A stretch of DNA of 64,000 bases from Candidatus Collierbacteria bacterium GW2011_GWB2_45_17. Its GTDB lineage: Bacteria; Patescibacteriota; Microgenomatia; UBA1400; MFAQ01. A program made the position numbers. Positions 9,001 to 15,000 of the stretch are shown here, piece by piece. Each line of letters begins with the position of its first letter. The first letter of the stretch is position 1. The stretch spans positions 76,517-140,516 of the forward strand of contig LCKO01000001.1 of the NCBI GenBank assembly GCA_001001485.1, given 5' to 3'.

Positions 9001-12000
9001 CGTTAGCGGACCGGACTTCTGCTCTAGAATCGCTCAAAAACGTCATCGGCCGTCGAGTTGACCTGTTTGGTGTTTCGGAATCAGGCATAAAAACTGCCGT
9101 CAGTGGCAACGACTTTCGTCTTATTCTCGAGCTTCCCGGTGTTACGGATTCTCAACAAGCACTTTCTTTAATTGGTCAAACTGCTCAAATGGTTTTTGCT
9201 CTCCCTGTTTACACCCCTGGCAAAACCGCCTCTGAATCTGCGACCTTAACTGACTTCCGGTCAACCGACCTGACTGGCGCCGATCTCCAGAGAGCTACCG
9301 TCACCTTTGAGTCTCAGGACCGCTCTCCTGCAGTTTCACTCACCTTTAAAGATAGTGGCAAGATCAAATTTGCTAAACTTACCAAAGACAACATCGGCAA
9401 GCCAATCGCCATTTTGCTCGACGGATATCCTCTTACTATGCCCACGGTCCAGACAGAAATCATCGATGGCAATGCCATCATCACCGGCCAGTTTACGACC
9501 GACGAAGCCAAAGCCCTCTCCGTTCAGCTCAACGCCGGTGCTCTACCGGTACCGGTTTCGATACTGAGCCAAAAAAACATCCCCGCTACTTTAGGTGCCG
9601 ATTCCATCAAGAAAAGTATTACTGCCGGAGCCATTGGTTTATCTATGGTTATTTTCTTTATGATTGTCTACTACGGCCGGCTCGGCTTTATTGCTTCCAT
9701 CGGCTTGGTTCTTTATGGCATTTTTACTTTAGCTCTCTACAAATTGATTCCGGTTGTTTTAAGTCTTCCAGGCATTGCCGGCTTTCTTCTTTCTGTTGGT
9801 ATGGCGGTCGATAGTAATATTCTGGTCTTTGAACGCTATAAAGAAGAAATTCGTGCCGGCCGTGACTGGCAGGTGGGCTTGGAACTGGCTTTTGGCCGTG
9901 CCTGGGACTCGATTAAAGATGCCAATACGGCCACCGTCATCACCGGTTTGATTTTATTTAATCCTTTGGAGTGGAGTTTCCTAAACACCTCAGGTTCTGT
10001 TAGAGGTTTTGCTCTCACCCTTATTCTTGGCATATTTATTTCTCTCTTCACCGGCATCATCGTCACCCGCAATCTTCTTAGATTATTTTTCAAAGGTACA
10101 ACCAAAAAAACATGAACTGGATGAAGCACCTCTCTCTCTATTTTGTTATTTCTGCTCTGGTTATTGTCCCGGGCATTTACTCGCTGATCCGTTACGGCCT
10201 CAAACCATCCATTGAATTCACCGGTGGCTCCCGCCTCACCTTAGTTTCAGTCACGTCATCTCCGGATACAGTTCTTCAGTCATTTAAAGACTATACTCCT
10301 CAGTTAGAAATCTCTGACGATACAAGTCTCTCTATCAAATCAAAGGAAATCTCTCAGGAAAACACCCAGAAGATTATTGACGGTCTCAAAAAAGAAAATC
10401 CGGATATCAAATTAACCGACTTCGAAACCATCGGACCTTCCCTAGGCCAAGAAACTATCAAAAAAACCACCAACGCCTTAACCATCGCCTCCCTTCTCCT
10501 TCTGGCCTACATTAGCTTCGCTTTCAAACAGCTTAAATACGGCATTTGCGCCATACTGGCCATGTTCCACGACACTGCTGTTCTTTTAGGCATATTTTCC
10601 CTTCTGGGTCATTTCTGGGGGGTGGAAATAGATCTGCTCTTTGTTACCGCAGTTCTAACAATTCTTTCTTTTTCTGTTCACGACACTATCGTCGTTTACG
10701 ATCGAATCCGCGAACTGTCCCACAAAATCAAAAATGTAGACTACGTTACTCTGGTAAACCAAGCAGTGACCGAGACAATGACCAGGTCACTCAACAACTC
10801 TTTAACGATTATCTTTATGCTTCTTGCCATGTTCCTCATGGGTGGGGAGACTACCAAATATTTCTCTCTGGCCCTCCTCATCGGCACCGTCACCGGCACT
10901 TATTCCAGTACCTTCACCGCCGCCCCCTTGCTCATCCTCTGGGATCGCTTCTCAAAAAAGAAATAACCAACAAGGTTTATAATCTTTCCATGTTAGTAGG
11001 CGAGTCCGATACCAACAAAATTTTAGATTTCCTTAGACTTGCTCGTCGGATGGAAACAACCTATCGTTTCACCCCTAAGCCGGATGGTAGTTTCGAAAAC
11101 GATGCTGAGCATTCTTGGTCAGTCTCTTTAATTTGTATCCTAGTCGCGAGCCGAATAGAAGAAGAACTAGGAGTAAAGATAGACCAGCTAAAAATGCTCA
11201 AAATGGCCATCATCCACGACATAGCGGAAATTGTCACCGGCGATACTAAAACCTGGGACAACGTCAGTCGAGTCGACAAAGAGGAAAAGGAAAGAACAGC
11301 CATTAAAGATTCGTTGGGCAGACTCCCAAACGACCTGATGGAGGAATTAGTAAATATTTGGGAAGAATGTGAGAAGAGAGAATCTATTGAAGCCATGATC
11401 GTCAAGTCTGTCGATAGATTTGACCCGGTAATCCATCGCACGGTTTTTGATTTAGGTTGGGACAATGTTGAAGATGACCACGCTACTTCAGAGGCATTAG
11501 ATGAGAGACAGCTCCCCAGACACTCATTTTCCAAAACCTTAACCGGGCTTTACACTACTATCCGCGATGAAGCCATTTCAAAAGGGATGTTCAAGGTAGC
11601 GAAGCCTCAATCAGACACGGACGTAGAGGATGAACTCGATCAAGAGCGGGCAGACTCGGAAGGCATGATTCAAAAAGAGTGGATCGATGAGGAATTGATG
11701 AATGAATTAGCTGAAGACCTACATAACGGCAGCACCCCTGGCTAATAATTCCTCAACAGATGTAAAATTATTTTGTGCCCAATATTTTTCCAAGTAGAAA
11801 ATCTATAAGATTACCAGGATATGACTATTCACAATCTGGAACATATTTTGTAACGATTTGTTCGTACAAACACGAACGCATCTTTGGGGAAATTGTTAAC
11901 AGGGAAATGAAGTTAAACGAATTGGGGTATATTTTGGAAAAAGAATGGATCGGTTTACCTCAAAGATTTACCAATGTTGATCTGAATTCATTTGTCATTA

Positions 12001-15000
12001 TGCCAAATCACATACACATGATTATCAAAATTGTAGGGGTTTCATTTATGAAACCCTATCAAAACATGAAACCCGAAACAAGTATCGCCAAATCAAAATC
12101 CAATTGTCACATGGGTTTGATAAATCAAACCCCTACGATTGGAATGATGGTTCGACATTTCAAATCCAAATGTTCATATGAAATTCACCACAATGGATTA
12201 AATCAAATCGTCTGGCAACGTAATTATTTCGAACACATCATTCGGGATGATTCTGATTTGATTCGAATTGTTGAATATATCCAAACTAATCCATCAAATT
12301 GGGAAAAAGACAAATTATATATTCCGTAGGGGTTTCATTTATGAAACCCGTCACATCCTCCCGATAAATAACCAACCAAAAACATCATTCCGTAGGGGTT
12401 TCATTTATGAAACCCGTCACCCAACTCCTTAATCTTTTTCAGTAAATATTCTCTATTATTTTTACTCGTATCTTCCAGCACTTCTTTAAATAATTCTTTC
12501 AGAACTTTTCCAATGATTGGCCCAGGGGTCACTTTCAGCACCTCCATCACATCCAGACCATTCACCGCCATATCATTTATCTCCATCGGCTCAAACAGTT
12601 GTTCGCCAATTCTTTTTTGTAGTTCCATGAATCTCCAGCTAGTGGTCTTAGCTCCACTGCCCTTACGATCGGCGATTCTCAACATCACCATGTCGCTAAT
12701 ATTCTCTTTCCCCACTTTTCTAATTAGTCTCCGAATAGCCGCATCGGTCATTTCCGGTTGGTAGGCAAACATATGCCACCTGACCAAGGTAATAATTTTA
12801 TCTATTTGTTTACGATTAAACTTTAGTCTTTCAATTATTTCCTTCGCCATCCTCGCCCCCACCACCTCATGTCCGTAAAAAGTGACCATTCCTCTGGTTG
12901 GCTGAGTGGAGCCACAGCTGGGACAAGTGGTCATTTCTTCCGCCAAATCGCGAAACATTTTGCCACACTTCCGGCATTTAAATCTCTGGGATCTGGGTTT
13001 CCCGATGTCATGAATTAAAGTGGCAAACCGCACAATTGGATCCGGTGAAGGACACTCCTTCAATGCTTCAATCATATGATCCAAGGTTGATAGAGTATGG
13101 TGCCCTCCCTGAACCACTCCTTTTCCTTCCAACATCTCCGGCATAAACTGATTCATGAGTCCGGTCGAAATTAACATCTTTACTCCATCCGCCGGATAAG
13201 GAGATTCCAGTATTCTTAAAAATTCATCTCGCACTCTCTCCTTACTAATTTTTGACAACAACTCCGACTTCTCTTGGATGGCCAGGAGAGTTTTTTCTTC
13301 AATCGAAAACCCGAGTTTCGCCGCAAATCTTATGGCTCGCATCATTCGTAGAGCATCTTCACCAAAACGCGATCTTGGGTCACCCACCGCTCGAATAAGC
13401 CCTTTATCAAAGTCAGCCAGTCCATCCACCAAATCTATTAACTCCGTTCGGCTAACTACCATGGCGTTTACAGTAAAATCTCTTCGGGTAACGTCTTCTT
13501 CCAGTGTCTTTCCCCACGAGACATTGTCAGGTCTTCTAAAGTCGGAGTACTCTTTCTCCGATCTATACGTTGTAATCTCGTAAAGTTCCTCTTTTCCATT
13601 CAAGGTCACGTTATATGAAACCGTGCCAAAATCATTATTATAAAAAGGACTTCTAGATTTTAGTACTTCCAGACTTTGTTCCGGTGTCGCGTTGGTCGTC
13701 AGATCGCAATTTTCCGGCACTTTACCGAGCACTAAGTTTCTTACTCCACCACCCACTAGATAGATTTCAAAGCCAGCCTTTTCATAGTCCTTCATCACCT
13801 TTTTTAAAGGTTCCGGCATGAGCATCAATTCGTCAGGCAAAAGAAGTCTTCTGTACACGTATAAATTTTATCACTTCGAGTACAATTGCCTCATGGAGAT
13901 CGGTCTAAAAAATATTATTTCCGAACTGAAAAAAGGCGGCAACCTGAGTGATGGTGATCGCCTTACCCAAATTTTTACGTTTGCAAAAGAGAAACACACC
14001 GGTCAAATTCGCCAAACAGGGGACTCTCTTTTTACTCACCCCGTTTCCATTGCCTTCTCATTGGCGTGTTGGGGTTTGGATCAGACGACTGTCGAAGCCG
14101 CTCTTCTTCATGAGGTTCCGGAAATGTCTGGAGTCACCATTGATGAAATCGCGAGCCTTTTTGGAGAAGAATGTGCCAGGCTAGTTGATGGCGTCATCCG
14201 TGTCGGCCAGGTAAAACTCCGTGGCAGTCAGAACGAAGAGTTTCTCGAAAATCTCCGTAAAATGTTCGTCGCTATGGCTCAAGACGTTAGAGTGGTAATT
14301 ATTCGCTTAGCGGACAGACTCCACAACATCACCACTCTGGAGGCTGTTCCTTTATCGAAACAAAAAAGAATCGCTCTGGAAACTCTTGAAATTTACGCGC
14401 CTCTAGCGGACAGACTGGGTATGGGTAAATTAAAAGGGGATCTGGAAGATCTTGCTTTCCCCTTTGTTTACCCGGACGAATATACCTGGGTGTCGACCAT
14501 TGCCAAGCCTCATTTCAAGCACTCGGAGGACAACATTGTCGAAGTTCTCCATCGGATTAGACAACAATTGGCCAAAAATAATGTCAACGCTCGGACAGAG
14601 TCTCGCCTGAAACGAAAATACAGTTTGTTCAGAAAACTCATGCGGCCGGAAATAAATCGAGACATCAGCCAGATACACGATCTAATGGCCGTCAGAATCA
14701 TCACCGGGGACACCGCTTCTTGTTACTCGACTCTTGGAATTATTCATGAATACTGGAAACCGGTTCCCTTTTTAGGCATCTCCGATTTTATTTCTCAGCC
14801 CAAACCAAATGGTTATCAATCAATCCACACCAAAGTATTTGATAACCGAGGAAACATCGTCGAGATTCAAATTAGATCCGAAGAGATGCATTCCCATGCT
14901 GAGTTCGGAGCCGCAGCTCACTTTGCTTATGCCCACGCCAAGCACCAAGGGGCCACCGACGAAAAGTTAGAGAAAGGAACCGCCTTCAGCATTACCCAGA

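What the first reader, a model, noticed from the sequence alone, without database searches (positions are those of the whole stretch)
11775..12420. RAYT transposase flanked by its REP palindromes; REP units supply the stop codons of two converging genes
The IS200-like HUH Y1 transposase (HIHMII) contains one GGGTTTCATTTATGAAACCC palindrome in frame (VGVSFMKPYQ) and is followed by two identical 35-bp REP units. The RAYT stop codon (TAG) lies inside the first unit. The last residues and TGA stop of the converging cca gene lie inside the second unit.
Basis: seen in the sequence. Interest (0 to 1): 0.55.

Follow-up and report, generated by a model that had tools for sequence, protein, structure and literature searches.

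The report
RAYT gene with embedded REP hairpins
This is a domesticated hairpin-cutting transposase gene (a RAYT) in a Candidatus Collierbacteria genome that carries copies of its own target hairpin (REP) inside and just after its coding sequence; the arrangement was already described for this RAYT subclass in 2018, so it is a clean new example, not a new kind of element.

Summary
ORF 11775-12329 (+) is a Y1 HUH enzyme whose best structural and sequence match is E. coli TnpA-REP (4ER8). The palindrome GGGTTTCATTTATGAAACCC, preceded by GTAG, occurs exactly three times: once in frame and twice after the gene. The RAYT TAG stop is the TAG of the first external GTAG. The TGA stop of cca and its last residues lie in the second unit.

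Corrections:
- The identical units are 34 nt, not 35.
- REPs lie only inside and 3' of the gene, so it is not flanked on both sides.
With the first internal copy it forms an in-frame REPIN-like pair encoding VGVSFMKP...GLINQTPT, in a predicted disordered loop.

No other copy exists in about 74 kb of this genome. A 790-kb sister contig has one dispersed REPIN, and the same REP is scattered through many phyla.

A strain with 96% identical DNA lacks the whole 675-bp cassette.

Quentin et al. 2018 already describe TnpA-Y1 subclass 2.4 (RAYT group 4) with in-frame REPs between HuH and Y, and the protein fits that subclass. Di Nocera et al. 2013 already report REPs that overlap gene ends.

My modest addition: the second internal REP shows no synonymous variation across 14 homologues, whereas control motifs vary freely.

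The parts
11775..12329 (+). RAYT / TnpA-REP gene (184 aa, GTG start). Catalytic residues are H79 and H81 (12009-12017), W146-Q147... (WQRNY), Y168 (12276-12278) and N172 (12288-12290).
   Evidence: ORF listing. Pfam PF01797 25.8 bits against a cut-off of 23. NCBIfam NF047646 64.8 bits in two stretches. 4ER8 hits. These residues are invariant in alignment A1.
12033..12056 (+). Internal REP 1: GTAG foot (12033-12036) plus hairpin GGGTTTCAT-TT-ATGAAACCC, read in frame as V87-G-V-S-F-M-K-P94.
   Evidence: Folds as ssDNA at -7.3 kcal/mol, z = -4.4.
12113..12136 (-). Internal REP 2, inverted. On the minus strand it reads GTAG + GGGTTTGAT-TT-ATCAAACCC, with a compensatory C/G swap in the stem. In frame on the plus strand it reads (M)G-L-I-N-Q-T-P-T.
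   Evidence: (I7, I11, I12). No synonymous variation in 14 homologues.
12029..12140 (+). In-frame REPIN-like pair: 28-nt arms, 89% complementary, 56-nt spacer. It encodes about aa 86-122, a low-confidence loop between the HUH strand (aa 79-86) and helix 122-139.
   Evidence: I7. Folding z = -3.96. AlphaFold pLDDT is below 55 for aa about 88-120. 4ER8 has 13 residues where this protein has 46.
12321..12354 (+). External REP unit 1 (34 nt): GTAG 12326-12329, hairpin 12330-12349, tail GTCAC. The RAYT stop TAG (12327-12329) lies in the GTAG foot.
   Evidence: (D10).
12355..12386 (.). 32-nt spacer between the two external units. It is absent from the sister species, which has a single unit.
   Evidence: Alignment A2.
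12387..12420 (+). External REP unit 2 (34 nt, identical to unit 1): GTAG 12392-12395, hairpin 12396-12415. On the minus strand it supplies the cca codons D-G-F-H-K and the TGA stop (12401-12403).
   Evidence: D10.
12401..13858 (-). Converging class-II nucleotidyltransferase gene (cca/pcnB family with an HD domain). Only its variable C-terminal tail is REP-encoded.
   Evidence: Pfam and NCBIfam. C-termini of 120 orthologues.
11746..12420 (.). The whole RAYT-REP cassette. [quoted passage not shown] A closer strain (L126) has 10 nt (ATTATTTTTT) in its place. The right edge coincides with the end of REP unit 2.

Best explanation
This is a REPtron: a single-copy domesticated Y1 HUH enzyme together with its cognate GTAG-tagged REP hairpins. 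The enzyme belongs to RAYT / TnpA-REP, TnpA-Y1 subclass 2.4 of Quentin et al. 2018, which equals RAYT group 4 of Bertels et al. 2017. It lies in the variable SecF-cca slot of a Candidatus Collierbacteria genome.

Shown here:
- The enzyme has the full catalytic set (H79, H81, Y168, N172, WQ) and the TnpA-REP fold.
- Four GTAG-footed perfect hairpins lie in or just after its gene.
- Two of them form an in-frame REPIN-like pair inside a disordered surface loop between the HUH strand and the next helix. That is the position where this subclass is known to carry in-frame REP insertions.
- The second internal REP (the first was fixed by how the sequences were found) is held constant at the nucleotide level across homologues that are only 37-75% identical as proteins.
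- The two external units overlap the stop codons of RAYT and cca. They replace only the non-conserved tail of cca.
- The cassette is an insertion/deletion polymorphism between close strains.

Inferred from work on E. coli, S. maltophilia and Marinomonas TnpA-REP (PMC3479197, PMC8266576):
- The protein binds the folded REP on single-stranded DNA, reads the GTAG foot, and cleaves and rejoins next to it.
- That activity would account for the local duplication of the 3' unit and for the rare dispersed REPINs.
- The stop-codon overlaps are by-products of REPs settling at gene 3' ends. There they may act as 3' hairpins on both convergent transcripts.

In this small genome the REP population is tiny: a handful of copies, not hundreds.
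For: Family assignment:
- Pfam Y1_Tnp, NCBIfam REP_Tyr_transpos, 4ER8 by sequence and by fold (E = 1.3e-6, TM 0.56/0.62).
- Subclass 2.4 motifs, length and HuH-Y spacing from Table 1 and text of PMC6006769, set against the sequence.

REP anatomy and non-randomness.

Loop location: AlphaFold pLDDT profile and the gap against 4ER8.

Nucleotide-level constraint:
- The internal pair is 100% identical as DNA in the window, L120, L130, L132 and L005, whose proteins are 51-75% identical to the window's.
- 0 of 7 degenerate codons in REP2 show a synonymous variant, against 10 of 16 in invariant control motifs of the same 14 genes (Fisher one-sided p = 0.007).
- Variation resumes at the first base after CTAC.
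- A more distant homologue (L131) carries a different palindrome pair at the same place.

Dispersal:
- More than 119 stretches in GTDB species genomes from many phyla, about 110 of them away from RAYT genes.
- 45 stretches in JGI metagenomes for the exact window variant: 23 matches inside RAYT homologues, 22 away from any and one beside a gene. The dispersed ones are often C..G plus inverted G..C REPINs.
- One dispersed REPIN on the sister 790-kb contig.

Synteny and indel.

cca tail.

REPs close to or overlapping the 3' ends of convergent genes are general (PMC3733652).
Against: - No dispersed copy was found in the roughly 74 kb of this genome that I could read. Activity in this lineage is therefore unproven, and the system could be a relic.
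- The NCBIfam score (64.8) is below the curated cut-off of 80.
- The Y motif is YIQTNP rather than the YIxNNP consensus.
- There is no REP 5' of the gene.
- No T-run follows the hairpins, so they are not canonical intrinsic terminators.
- The nucleotide constancy could come from gene conversion or repeated re-insertion rather than purifying selection.
- The 14 genes were chosen for an exact first REP, which could enrich for one recent clade. The control motifs from the same genes nevertheless vary.
Confidence: 0.85

Rival explanations
1. Relic REPtron. The RAYT is domesticated or idle in this lineage and no longer moves REPs. The four hairpins persist only as RNA or DNA structural elements, for example 3'-end hairpins that protect the two convergent mRNAs, or as neutral passengers in a tolerant loop.
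For: - All copies in about 74 kb are at the one locus.
- Only 3 exact copies occur on the 790-kb sister contig.
- Bertels et al. report only low-abundance flanking 16-mers for group 4.
- Di Nocera et al. argue that many REPs act as transcribed 3' elements.
Against: - The catalytic residues are all intact and invariant.
- The 3' unit has been duplicated since the split from the sister species.
- A dispersed REPIN of the same two variants exists in the sister genome.
- Neutral passengers would not stay identical at synonymous sites.
Confidence: 0.3
2. The internal 'REPs' are conserved because the peptides VGVSFMKP and GLINQTPT are needed by the protein. On this view the palindromy is incidental, or the dispersed REPs are derived from the gene.
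For: - The two peptides are conserved in homologues P0002-P0012.
- V-G and T-x-G are nearly invariant in the family alignment.
Against: - There is no synonymous variation inside the REP, while invariant residues elsewhere use 2-5 codons (p = 0.007).
- Other homologues have quite different peptides that are again palindrome-encoded (VGAQFIAP/GAINRAPT in L131).
- The segment is predicted to be disordered and is absent from 4ER8.
- Identical DNA occurs in non-coding positions in many genomes.
Confidence: 0.07
3. An autonomous IS200/IS605-type insertion sequence. The 675-bp cassette would be a mobile IS that recently inserted next to cca, with the hairpins as its ends.
For: - A presence/absence polymorphism exists against a strain with 96% identical DNA.
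- One edge falls exactly at the end of a REP unit.
- The Y1 HUH fold is shared with IS608 and ISDra2.
Against: - The gene is single-copy in the window.
- There is no hairpin at the 5' end.
- The motifs are class 2 (NHIH, WQ, YIQTNP), not the DH[VI]H / Y[IV]ENQ of subclass 1.1.
- The cassette sits at the same site in a more distant species (87-91% flank identity). Loss in L126 is therefore more parsimonious than two independent insertions.
Confidence: 0.05
4. Chance palindromes in an AT-rich genome, or an assembly artefact.
For: None found.
Against: - 0 of 100 shuffles reach the observed count.
- The locus is identical in four independent assemblies from ENA, NCBI and Logan.
Confidence: 0.01

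Closest known systems
TnpA-Y1 subclass 2.4 REPtrons (Quentin, Siguier, Chandler and Fichant 2018, BMC Genomics 19:475, PMC6006769), equal to RAYT group 4 of Bertels, Gallie and Rainey 2017 (PMC5581495)
   Same: - NH[IFV]H and WQ motifs; a YIxxNP tyrosine motif.
- About 190 aa with no C-terminal extension domain.
- HuH-Y distance of about 88 aa.
- A variable insertion between beta3 and alphaC that consists of in-frame REPs.
- GT[AG]G-footed long REPs whose stems start with three G-C pairs.
- Low copy number and a patchy distribution across phyla.
   Different: - The host is Patescibacteria (Collierbacteria); the paper names Cyanobacteria, Bacteroidetes and 'various phyla'.
- The Y motif is YIQTNP rather than YIxNNP.
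- Documented here in addition: the internal copies form a fixed pair of two compensatory stem variants, the second internal REP has no synonymous variation, there are no REPs 5' of the gene, and a close strain has an empty site.
E. coli TnpA-REP / RAYT (YafM; PDB 4ER8; subclass 2.2, group 2) with REP/BIME
   Same: The Y1 HUH fold, a GTAG foot next to a hairpin, a single-copy gene with REPs beside it, and conserved W/Q/R residues in the GTAG-recognition region.
   Different: - E. coli REPs are imperfect palindromes with a bulge and number in the hundreds.
- Its motifs are DHLH / WE / YIHYNP, and it has a C-terminal tail.
- No REP lies inside the gene.
- Here the REPs are perfect palindromes with 9-bp stems, like the 'second group' studied in PMC8266576.
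REPINs (Bertels and Rainey 2011, PMC3116915)
   Same: Two REPs in inverted orientation separated by a short spacer. This applies both to the internal pair and to the dispersed copies found in relatives (L160, L140, L157, L163).
   Different: The classical REPIN populations of Pseudomonas number hundreds per genome and are extragenic. Here one REPIN is translated as part of the RAYT itself, and the population is a handful of copies.
In-frame palindromic insertions in protein genes: Rickettsia palindromic elements and intragenic GTAG/CGTC REPs (Di Nocera et al. 2013, PMC3733652)
   Same: Palindromic repeats are inserted in frame into tolerant surface regions or at the ends of ORFs. REPs lie within 20 bp of the 3' ends of convergent genes, and about 10% overlap the ends of ORFs.
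   Different: In those cases the hosts are unrelated housekeeping genes. Here the host gene encodes the enzyme that presumably recognises the repeat.
IS200/IS605 TnpA (subclass 1.1; IS608, ISDra2)
   Same: The Y1 HUH fold (Foldseek hits) and recognition of hairpins on single-stranded DNA.
   Different: Those are multi-copy insertion sequences with distinct left-end and right-end hairpins and DH[VI]H / Y[IV]ENQ motifs. None of these features is found here.

Membership tests
RAYT / TnpA-REP (class 2 TnpA-Y1) | HUH motif, catalytic Tyr and Asn/Gln third ligand in a Y1 core | tested here: met
   H79-I-H81, Y168 and N172 are present and invariant in 25 homologues. Pfam PF01797 scores 25.8 bits against a cut-off of 23.
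RAYT / TnpA-REP (class 2 TnpA-Y1) | Curated NCBIfam equivalog NF047646 at or above its cut-off | tested here: not met
   64.8 bits against a cut-off of 80, in two stretches split by the REP-encoded insert. It is nevertheless the only NCBIfam family hit.
RAYT / TnpA-REP (class 2 TnpA-Y1) | Fold closest to TnpA-REP (4ER8) | tested here: met
   4ER8_A is the top Foldseek hit (E = 1.3e-6, TM 0.56/0.62) and the only PDB sequence hit. The model has mean pLDDT 81.
RAYT / TnpA-REP (class 2 TnpA-Y1) | Canonical REPs (5' GT[AG]G foot on a hairpin) within 1 kb of the gene | tested here: met
   Four GTAG-footed hairpins with 9-bp stems lie at 12033, 12136 (minus strand), 12326 and 12392.
RAYT / TnpA-REP (class 2 TnpA-Y1) | The same REP dispersed elsewhere in the host genome | tested here: inconclusive
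   None in the 64-kb window or 9.9 kb upstream. One dispersed REPIN lies on the 790-kb contig of the sister species. Solitary copies occur in two other Collierbacteria genomes. The whole genome could not be read.
RAYT / TnpA-REP (class 2 TnpA-Y1) | Single-copy gene at a conserved chromosomal site, inherited vertically | tested here: inconclusive
   One copy in the window. The same SecF-cca site is used in the sister species. The gene is absent from a closer strain and from other Collierbacteria. The genome-wide copy number was not readable.
RAYT / TnpA-REP (class 2 TnpA-Y1) | Cleavage and strand transfer of single-stranded cognate REP | not testable with these tools
   Needs purified protein. 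The assays exist for E. coli, S. maltophilia and Marinomonas (PMC8266576).
TnpA-Y1 subclass 2.4 (RAYT group 4) | Key motifs NH[IFV]H, WQ and YIxNNP (Table 1 of PMC6006769) | tested here: met
   NHIH and WQ match exactly. The Y motif is YIQTNP, which has T where the consensus has N.
TnpA-Y1 subclass 2.4 (RAYT group 4) | Median length about 194 aa, HuH-Y distance about 88 aa, no C-terminal extension domain | tested here: met
   184 aa. H81 to Y168 is 87 residues. The protein ends 16 residues after Y168.
TnpA-Y1 subclass 2.4 (RAYT group 4) | Variable insertion between beta3 (HUH strand) and alphaC made of in-frame REP sequence | tested here: met
   The REP pair at 12029-12140 encodes about aa 86-122, between strand 79-86 and helix 122-139. 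The reading frame is kept. Homologues show the same arrangement.
TnpA-Y1 subclass 2.4 (RAYT group 4) | Long REPs with three G-C pairs at the stem bottom; double-foot (GTAG...CTAC) forms in the family | tested here: met
   The stems start GGG/CCC. 46 of 146 matches in other genomes are double-footed.
IS200/IS605 transposase (subclass 1.1) | DH[VI]H and Y[IV]ENQ motifs; multi-copy element with left-end and right-end hairpins | tested here: not met
   The motifs are NHIH and YIQTNP. The window holds one copy. There is no hairpin 5' of the gene.
REPIN | Two inverted REPs with a short spacer, present as a replicating population in the genome | tested here: inconclusive
   The architecture is met by the internal pair (I7) and by dispersed copies in relatives. 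A population in this genome was not seen.

The most novel reading that the evidence does not exclude
The REPIN translated inside the RAYT gene may not be a tolerated passenger. It may be a functional cis element kept under nucleotide-level selection. Two possibilities are a master or seed copy, which guarantees that enzyme and substrate travel together, or an operator or attenuator through which the enzyme or the hairpin structure controls RAYT expression. The first would explain why the same 24-nt REP is found with this RAYT clade in many phyla. The fixed pairing of two compensatory stem variants (C..G first, G..C second, inverted), both in the gene and in dispersed REPINs, would then be part of the recognition code.
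Probability: 0.2. Interest if true: 0.55.

Novelty: new member of a known kind. Interest (0 to 1): 0.27.

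Why it matters
It adds a well-resolved Patescibacteria (CPR) example to RAYT subclass 2.4. The example has clear boundaries, an empty-site strain, a syntenic sister species, and a REP population so small that every copy can be followed.

The one point that goes beyond the literature I read is that the second gene-internal REP is frozen at synonymous sites while the rest of the gene drifts; the first was fixed by the search pattern and is uninformative. This bears on an open question for RAYTs, namely what keeps enzyme and repeat associated over long times. If the internal REPIN is a functional cis element, this compact system would be a convenient test bed.

The stop-codon overlaps are ordinary consequences of REPs settling at gene ends. 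They change only a non-conserved tail of cca.

Tried and rejected
1. Genome-wide count in this very genome. No tool gives the whole assembly. I extended the window by 9.9 kb upstream (L182, 100% identical overlap) and found nothing. The downstream extension (L183) turned out to be a 90%-identical relative and also held nothing.
It cannot say whether this species' representative genome was reached.
3. Intrinsic-terminator reading of the 3' hairpins. The scan found no terminator-like site, because no T-run follows the stems, so I rejected a canonical terminator role. A role as a 3' stabilising hairpin remains only an inference.
4. Rfam. No RNA family matches the locus.
5. Phage vehicle. Only 4 viral contigs carry the REP, and I did not pursue this.
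6. Direction of the indel. I compared the junctions for target duplications or microhomology. 'CCCAA' occurs at 11783 and 12420, and 'ATTATTTT' occurs at the empty site and at 11767. The pattern is ambiguous, so the direction rests on parsimony only: loss in L126.
7. I considered whether the 32-nt spacer between the external units is a remnant of the cca 3' end, because it resembles the L120 cca sequence. The evidence is too short to count, so I dropped the idea.
8. IS200-type IS, chance palindromes and peptide-level conservation were each considered and rejected. See the rival explanations.

Full report
**1. What is in the sequence**

The region 11746-12420 lies between two converging genes.
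- One is an HD-domain gene that ends at 11745.
- The other is a class-II nucleotidyltransferase gene of the cca/pcnB family with an HD domain, on the minus strand at 12401-13858.

The region holds one ORF, 11775-12329 (+), 184 aa, with a GTG start.

The 20-nt palindrome GGGTTTCATTTATGAAACCC occurs exactly at 12037, 12330 and 12396. A variant with a compensatory C/G swap in the stem, GGGTTTGATAAATCAAACCC, occurs at 12113. The count is 7 hits at up to 3 mismatches over both strands, against 0.01 expected, and no shuffle out of 100 reached it.

Each of the four copies carries a GTAG foot. For the 12113 copy, which is inverted, the foot appears as CTAC on the plus strand.

Each copy folds as single-stranded DNA into a stem of 8-9 bp at -7.3 kcal/mol, with z about -4.3.

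The two copies after the gene sit in units that are identical over 34 nt, at 12321-12354 and 12387-12420 (D10).

The RAYT stop TAG (12327-12329) is the TAG of the first external GTAG. The TGA stop of cca (12401-12403) and its last residues D-G-F-H-K are read from the second unit.

No REP lies 5' of the gene.

The locus is identical in four independent assemblies. The source is Candidatus Collierbacteria GW2011_GWB1_45 or a very close relative.

**2.

The copies at 12033-12056 and 12113-12136 are in inverted orientation. Their arms are 28 nt long, 89% complementary and 56 nt apart (I7; fold z = -3.96). This is the anatomy of a REPIN, and it is translated in frame as V87-GVSFMKP ... MGLINQTPT-I122.

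- In an AlphaFold model (mean pLDDT 81), residues about 88-120 have pLDDT below 55. They form a loop between the HUH strand (79-86) and helix 122-139.
- Against E. coli TnpA-REP (4ER8), the alignment breaks at this spot. 4ER8 has 13 residues where this protein has 46.

**3. What the protein is**

- Pfam Y1_Tnp scores above its cut-off.
- NCBIfam REP_Tyr_transpos is the only NCBIfam hit. It scores 64.8 bits against a cut-off of 80 and is split in two by the insert.
- 4ER8 is the only PDB sequence hit and the top Foldseek hit, ahead of the IS608, ISDra2 and IS200 transposases.
- H79, H81, Y168, N172 and the WQ motif are invariant in 25 homologues.
- The window contains only this one copy of the gene.

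**4. It is a published kind**

Quentin, Siguier, Chandler and Fichant (2018, PMC6006769) divide the TnpA-Y1 family into subclasses. Their subclass 2.4 equals group 4 of Bertels et al. 2017. They describe it as follows:
- motifs NH[IFV]H, WQ and YIxNNP;
- median length 194 aa, and a median HuH-Y distance of 88 aa;
- no C-terminal extension;
- an insertion of variable length between beta3 and alphaC;
- REPs that are long, have three G-C pairs at the stem bottom, are sometimes 'double foot', and are 'inserted in tnpAREP'.

They write: 'A unique feature of subclass 2.4 is that... [quoted passage not shown]

The window protein fits. It has NHIH, WQ and YIQTNP, is 184 aa long, and has 87 residues from H81 to Y168. 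The one departure is a T for an N in the Y motif.

Di Nocera et al. (2013, PMC3733652) report three relevant things:
- REPs between convergent genes mostly lie within 20 bp of both 3' ends.
- About 10% of REPs overlap ORF ends.
- Intragenic in-frame REPs occur in many genes.

So both the in-frame REP and the stop-codon overlaps are known phenomena.

**5. Is the palindrome a dispersed repeat?**

In this genome:
- There is no copy outside the cassette in the 64-kb window, at up to 3 mismatches.
- There is none in 9.9 kb further upstream (L182, 100% identical overlap).

In relatives and other organisms:
The hosts include Aminicenantes, Chloroflexi, Planctomycetes, Omnitrophota, Atribacterota, Zixibacteria, Nitrospirae and Patescibacteria.
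- About 110 of those stretches are not in or next to a RAYT homologue.
- 145 of 146 matches are the G..C stem variant, and 46 are double-footed.
- Two other Collierbacteria genomes carry solitary copies: between convergent genes in L081, and upstream of a pilin-like gene in L095.
- The exact window variant, GTAGGGGTTTCATTTATGAAACCC, occurs in only 45 stretches of the whole JGI metagenome collection. Of the 46 matches, 23 are inside RAYT homologues, 22 are away from any and one lies beside a gene. The dispersed ones are often dimers of the C..G REP followed by an inverted G..C REP, the same hetero-pair as inside the gene.
- On the 790-kb contig of the sister species there are three exact copies. 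Two are at the RAYT locus, and one is an intergenic REPIN elsewhere (L160).

The sequence is therefore a real dispersed REP family. In Collierbacteria its copy number is a handful, which agrees with the low flanking-repeat abundance reported for group 4.

**6. Comparative anatomy of the locus**

The sister species (L120):
- Its flanks are 87-91% identical to the window and its RAYT protein is 75% identical.
- The RAYT sits at the same place between SecF and cca.
- It has the same internal pair but only one 3' REP.
- That single REP supplies both stops: TAG in the GTAG foot for RAYT, and TAA in the loop for cca, read in a different frame from the window.
- The window therefore gained a second unit plus a 32-nt spacer after the two lineages split.

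The closer strain (L126):
- Its DNA is 96% identical across cca, and its left flank is 100% identical.
- It has neither RAYT nor REP. Ten nucleotides, ATTATTTTTT, replace window 11746-12420.
- The right break falls exactly at the end of REP unit 2.

The cassette is thus present in the window and in the more distant L120 but absent from the closer L126. Parsimony favours loss in L126, but the junctions do not settle the direction.

Other Collierbacteria carry unrelated genes in this slot, so it is a variable region.

**7. The cca C-terminus**

Across 120 orthologues the protein is conserved up to ...REYLLxRIKELG. A tail of 0-15 unconserved residues follows.
- In the window, the REP provides only that tail (DGFHK).
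- In the sister species, it provides a different tail (RVS).
- In the REP-free strain, the tail is KNNLARGAAVM and overlaps the converging ORF.

A functional consequence for cca is unlikely.

**8. Nucleotide-level constancy of the internal REP**

The internal pair is 100% identical as DNA in the window, L120, L130, L132 and L005. Their proteins are 51-75% identical to the window's.

I then took 14 distinct RAYT homologues that were found through their first REP.
- In the second REP, which was not part of the search pattern, none of the 7 degenerate codons shows a synonymous variant. The only change is ATA to ATG at a loop position.
- Variation resumes at the first base after CTAC: ACG/ACA/ACC, then TTG/TTA/ATT/ATC, then GGA/GGT/GGG.
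- In invariant protein motifs of the same genes (WQRNYYEHIIR and RxFKSK), 10 of 16 degenerate codons vary. The Fisher one-sided p is 0.007.

A more distant homologue (L131) has a different palindrome pair at the same place, GTAG-GGGCGCAATTCATTGCGCCC and GGGCGCGATAAATCGCGCCC-CTAC.

This argues that the nucleic-acid hairpin, not the peptide, is what is kept. Selection or gene conversion with other REP copies could each explain that.

The limits of this test are that the sample is small, related, and selected on the first REP.

**9. Mechanism**

Shown here:
- an intact Y1 HUH enzyme of the TnpA-REP fold;
- canonical GTAG-footed perfect hairpins inside and just after its gene;
- placement of the internal pair in a disordered loop;
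- nucleotide-level constancy of the internal REP;
- a local duplication of the 3' unit;
- rare dispersed REPINs in relatives;
- cassette presence/absence between strains.

Inferred from experiments on other TnpA-REP enzymes (PMC3479197; PMC8266576):
- The enzyme binds the folded REP on single-stranded DNA, reads the GTAG foot, and cleaves and rejoins beside it. This would generate or move REP/REPIN copies.

The hairpins are not followed by T-runs, and no terminator-like site was found. Any role at the transcript ends would therefore be as 3' stabilising structures, and that is conjecture.

**10. Verdict**

- The arrangement is a new member of a described kind, RAYT subclass 2.4 with in-frame REPs, in a CPR host.
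- The stop-codon overlaps are ordinary.
- What goes a little further than the literature I read: the fixed two-variant REPIN inside the gene, its frozen synonymous sites, and the empty-site strain.

Interest is low to moderate.

Noticed in passing
window 1094-1135, 1609-1654, 8715-8768, 15414-15466, 27681-27722; tail only at 58737-58760: A second, more abundant intergenic repeat family: CGTCATTGCGAGG-[variable centre]-GACGTGGCAATCTCACTCCACCCC. It is CGTC-tagged, unlike the GTAG REP (D6/D9, 64). In Di Nocera's terms these would be CGTC-type repeats, for which no dedicated transposase is known.
   Followed up: partly
window 26463-26501, 27803-27841, 30047-30085, 58772-58810: A four-copy repeat made of two adjacent hairpins, TTGGCCnnnnGGCCAA and GTGCCTGCTTCGCAGGCAC (D3).
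   Followed up: no
window 23600-37100: A cluster of larger repeats:
- a 298-nt direct repeat at 84% identity (24422 / 28847);
- 65-nt repeats (23678 / 27361 / 31904);
- an 81-nt perfect direct repeat (31829 / 36984);
- a 93-nt perfect inverted repeat (31943-32035 / 35304-35396) that brackets 3.3 kb;
- an unrelated GTAG-footed hairpin at 35426.

This may be a rearranging or mobile segment.
   Followed up: no
window 10990-11745; L120 9807-9971; L126 5417-5626: The last 40 or so residues of the window's HD-domain (YfbR-like) protein correspond to a stand-alone 54-69 aa ORF in relatives. The window gene therefore looks like a fusion or an insertion upstream of that small ORF.
   Followed up: partly
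L120, L127, L128, L129 (SecF-cca interval): The slot between secF and cca is variable across Collierbacteria. It holds a RAYT in two lineages, an aminoglycoside-resistance-like gene in L127, and cysS-like and other genes in L128/L129.
   Followed up: partly
L130 10128-10147 and 1796-1815; L131 10591-10610: The RAYT homologue in L130 carries a third in-frame GTAG hairpin from another REP family (GGGTCGGGCGTGACCGACCC) in its N-terminal half, and a related copy lies 8 kb away. The homologue in L131 has a different internal pair, plus a GLINQTPT-type REP translated in its C-terminal tail.
   Followed up: partly
window 12401-13858 (minus strand), aa about 284-324: The cca-family protein has a CxxC...CxxC zinc-ribbon-like insert inside its HD domain, shown by weak Pfam hits to Zn_ribbon_8 and DUF7129.
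   Followed up: no
window 4012-4316 (minus strand) and 37097-37169 (minus strand): Bacterial RNase P RNA class A and one tRNA gene. These are the only Rfam matches at gathering score in the window.
   Followed up: no
L095 4180-4260: In another Collierbacteria genome, a solitary REP of the G..C variant sits just upstream of a type IV pilin-like gene. It would be translated as ...GLINQTPT... if the longest ORF were called, which shows how these REPs can inflate ORF predictions.
   Followed up: partly
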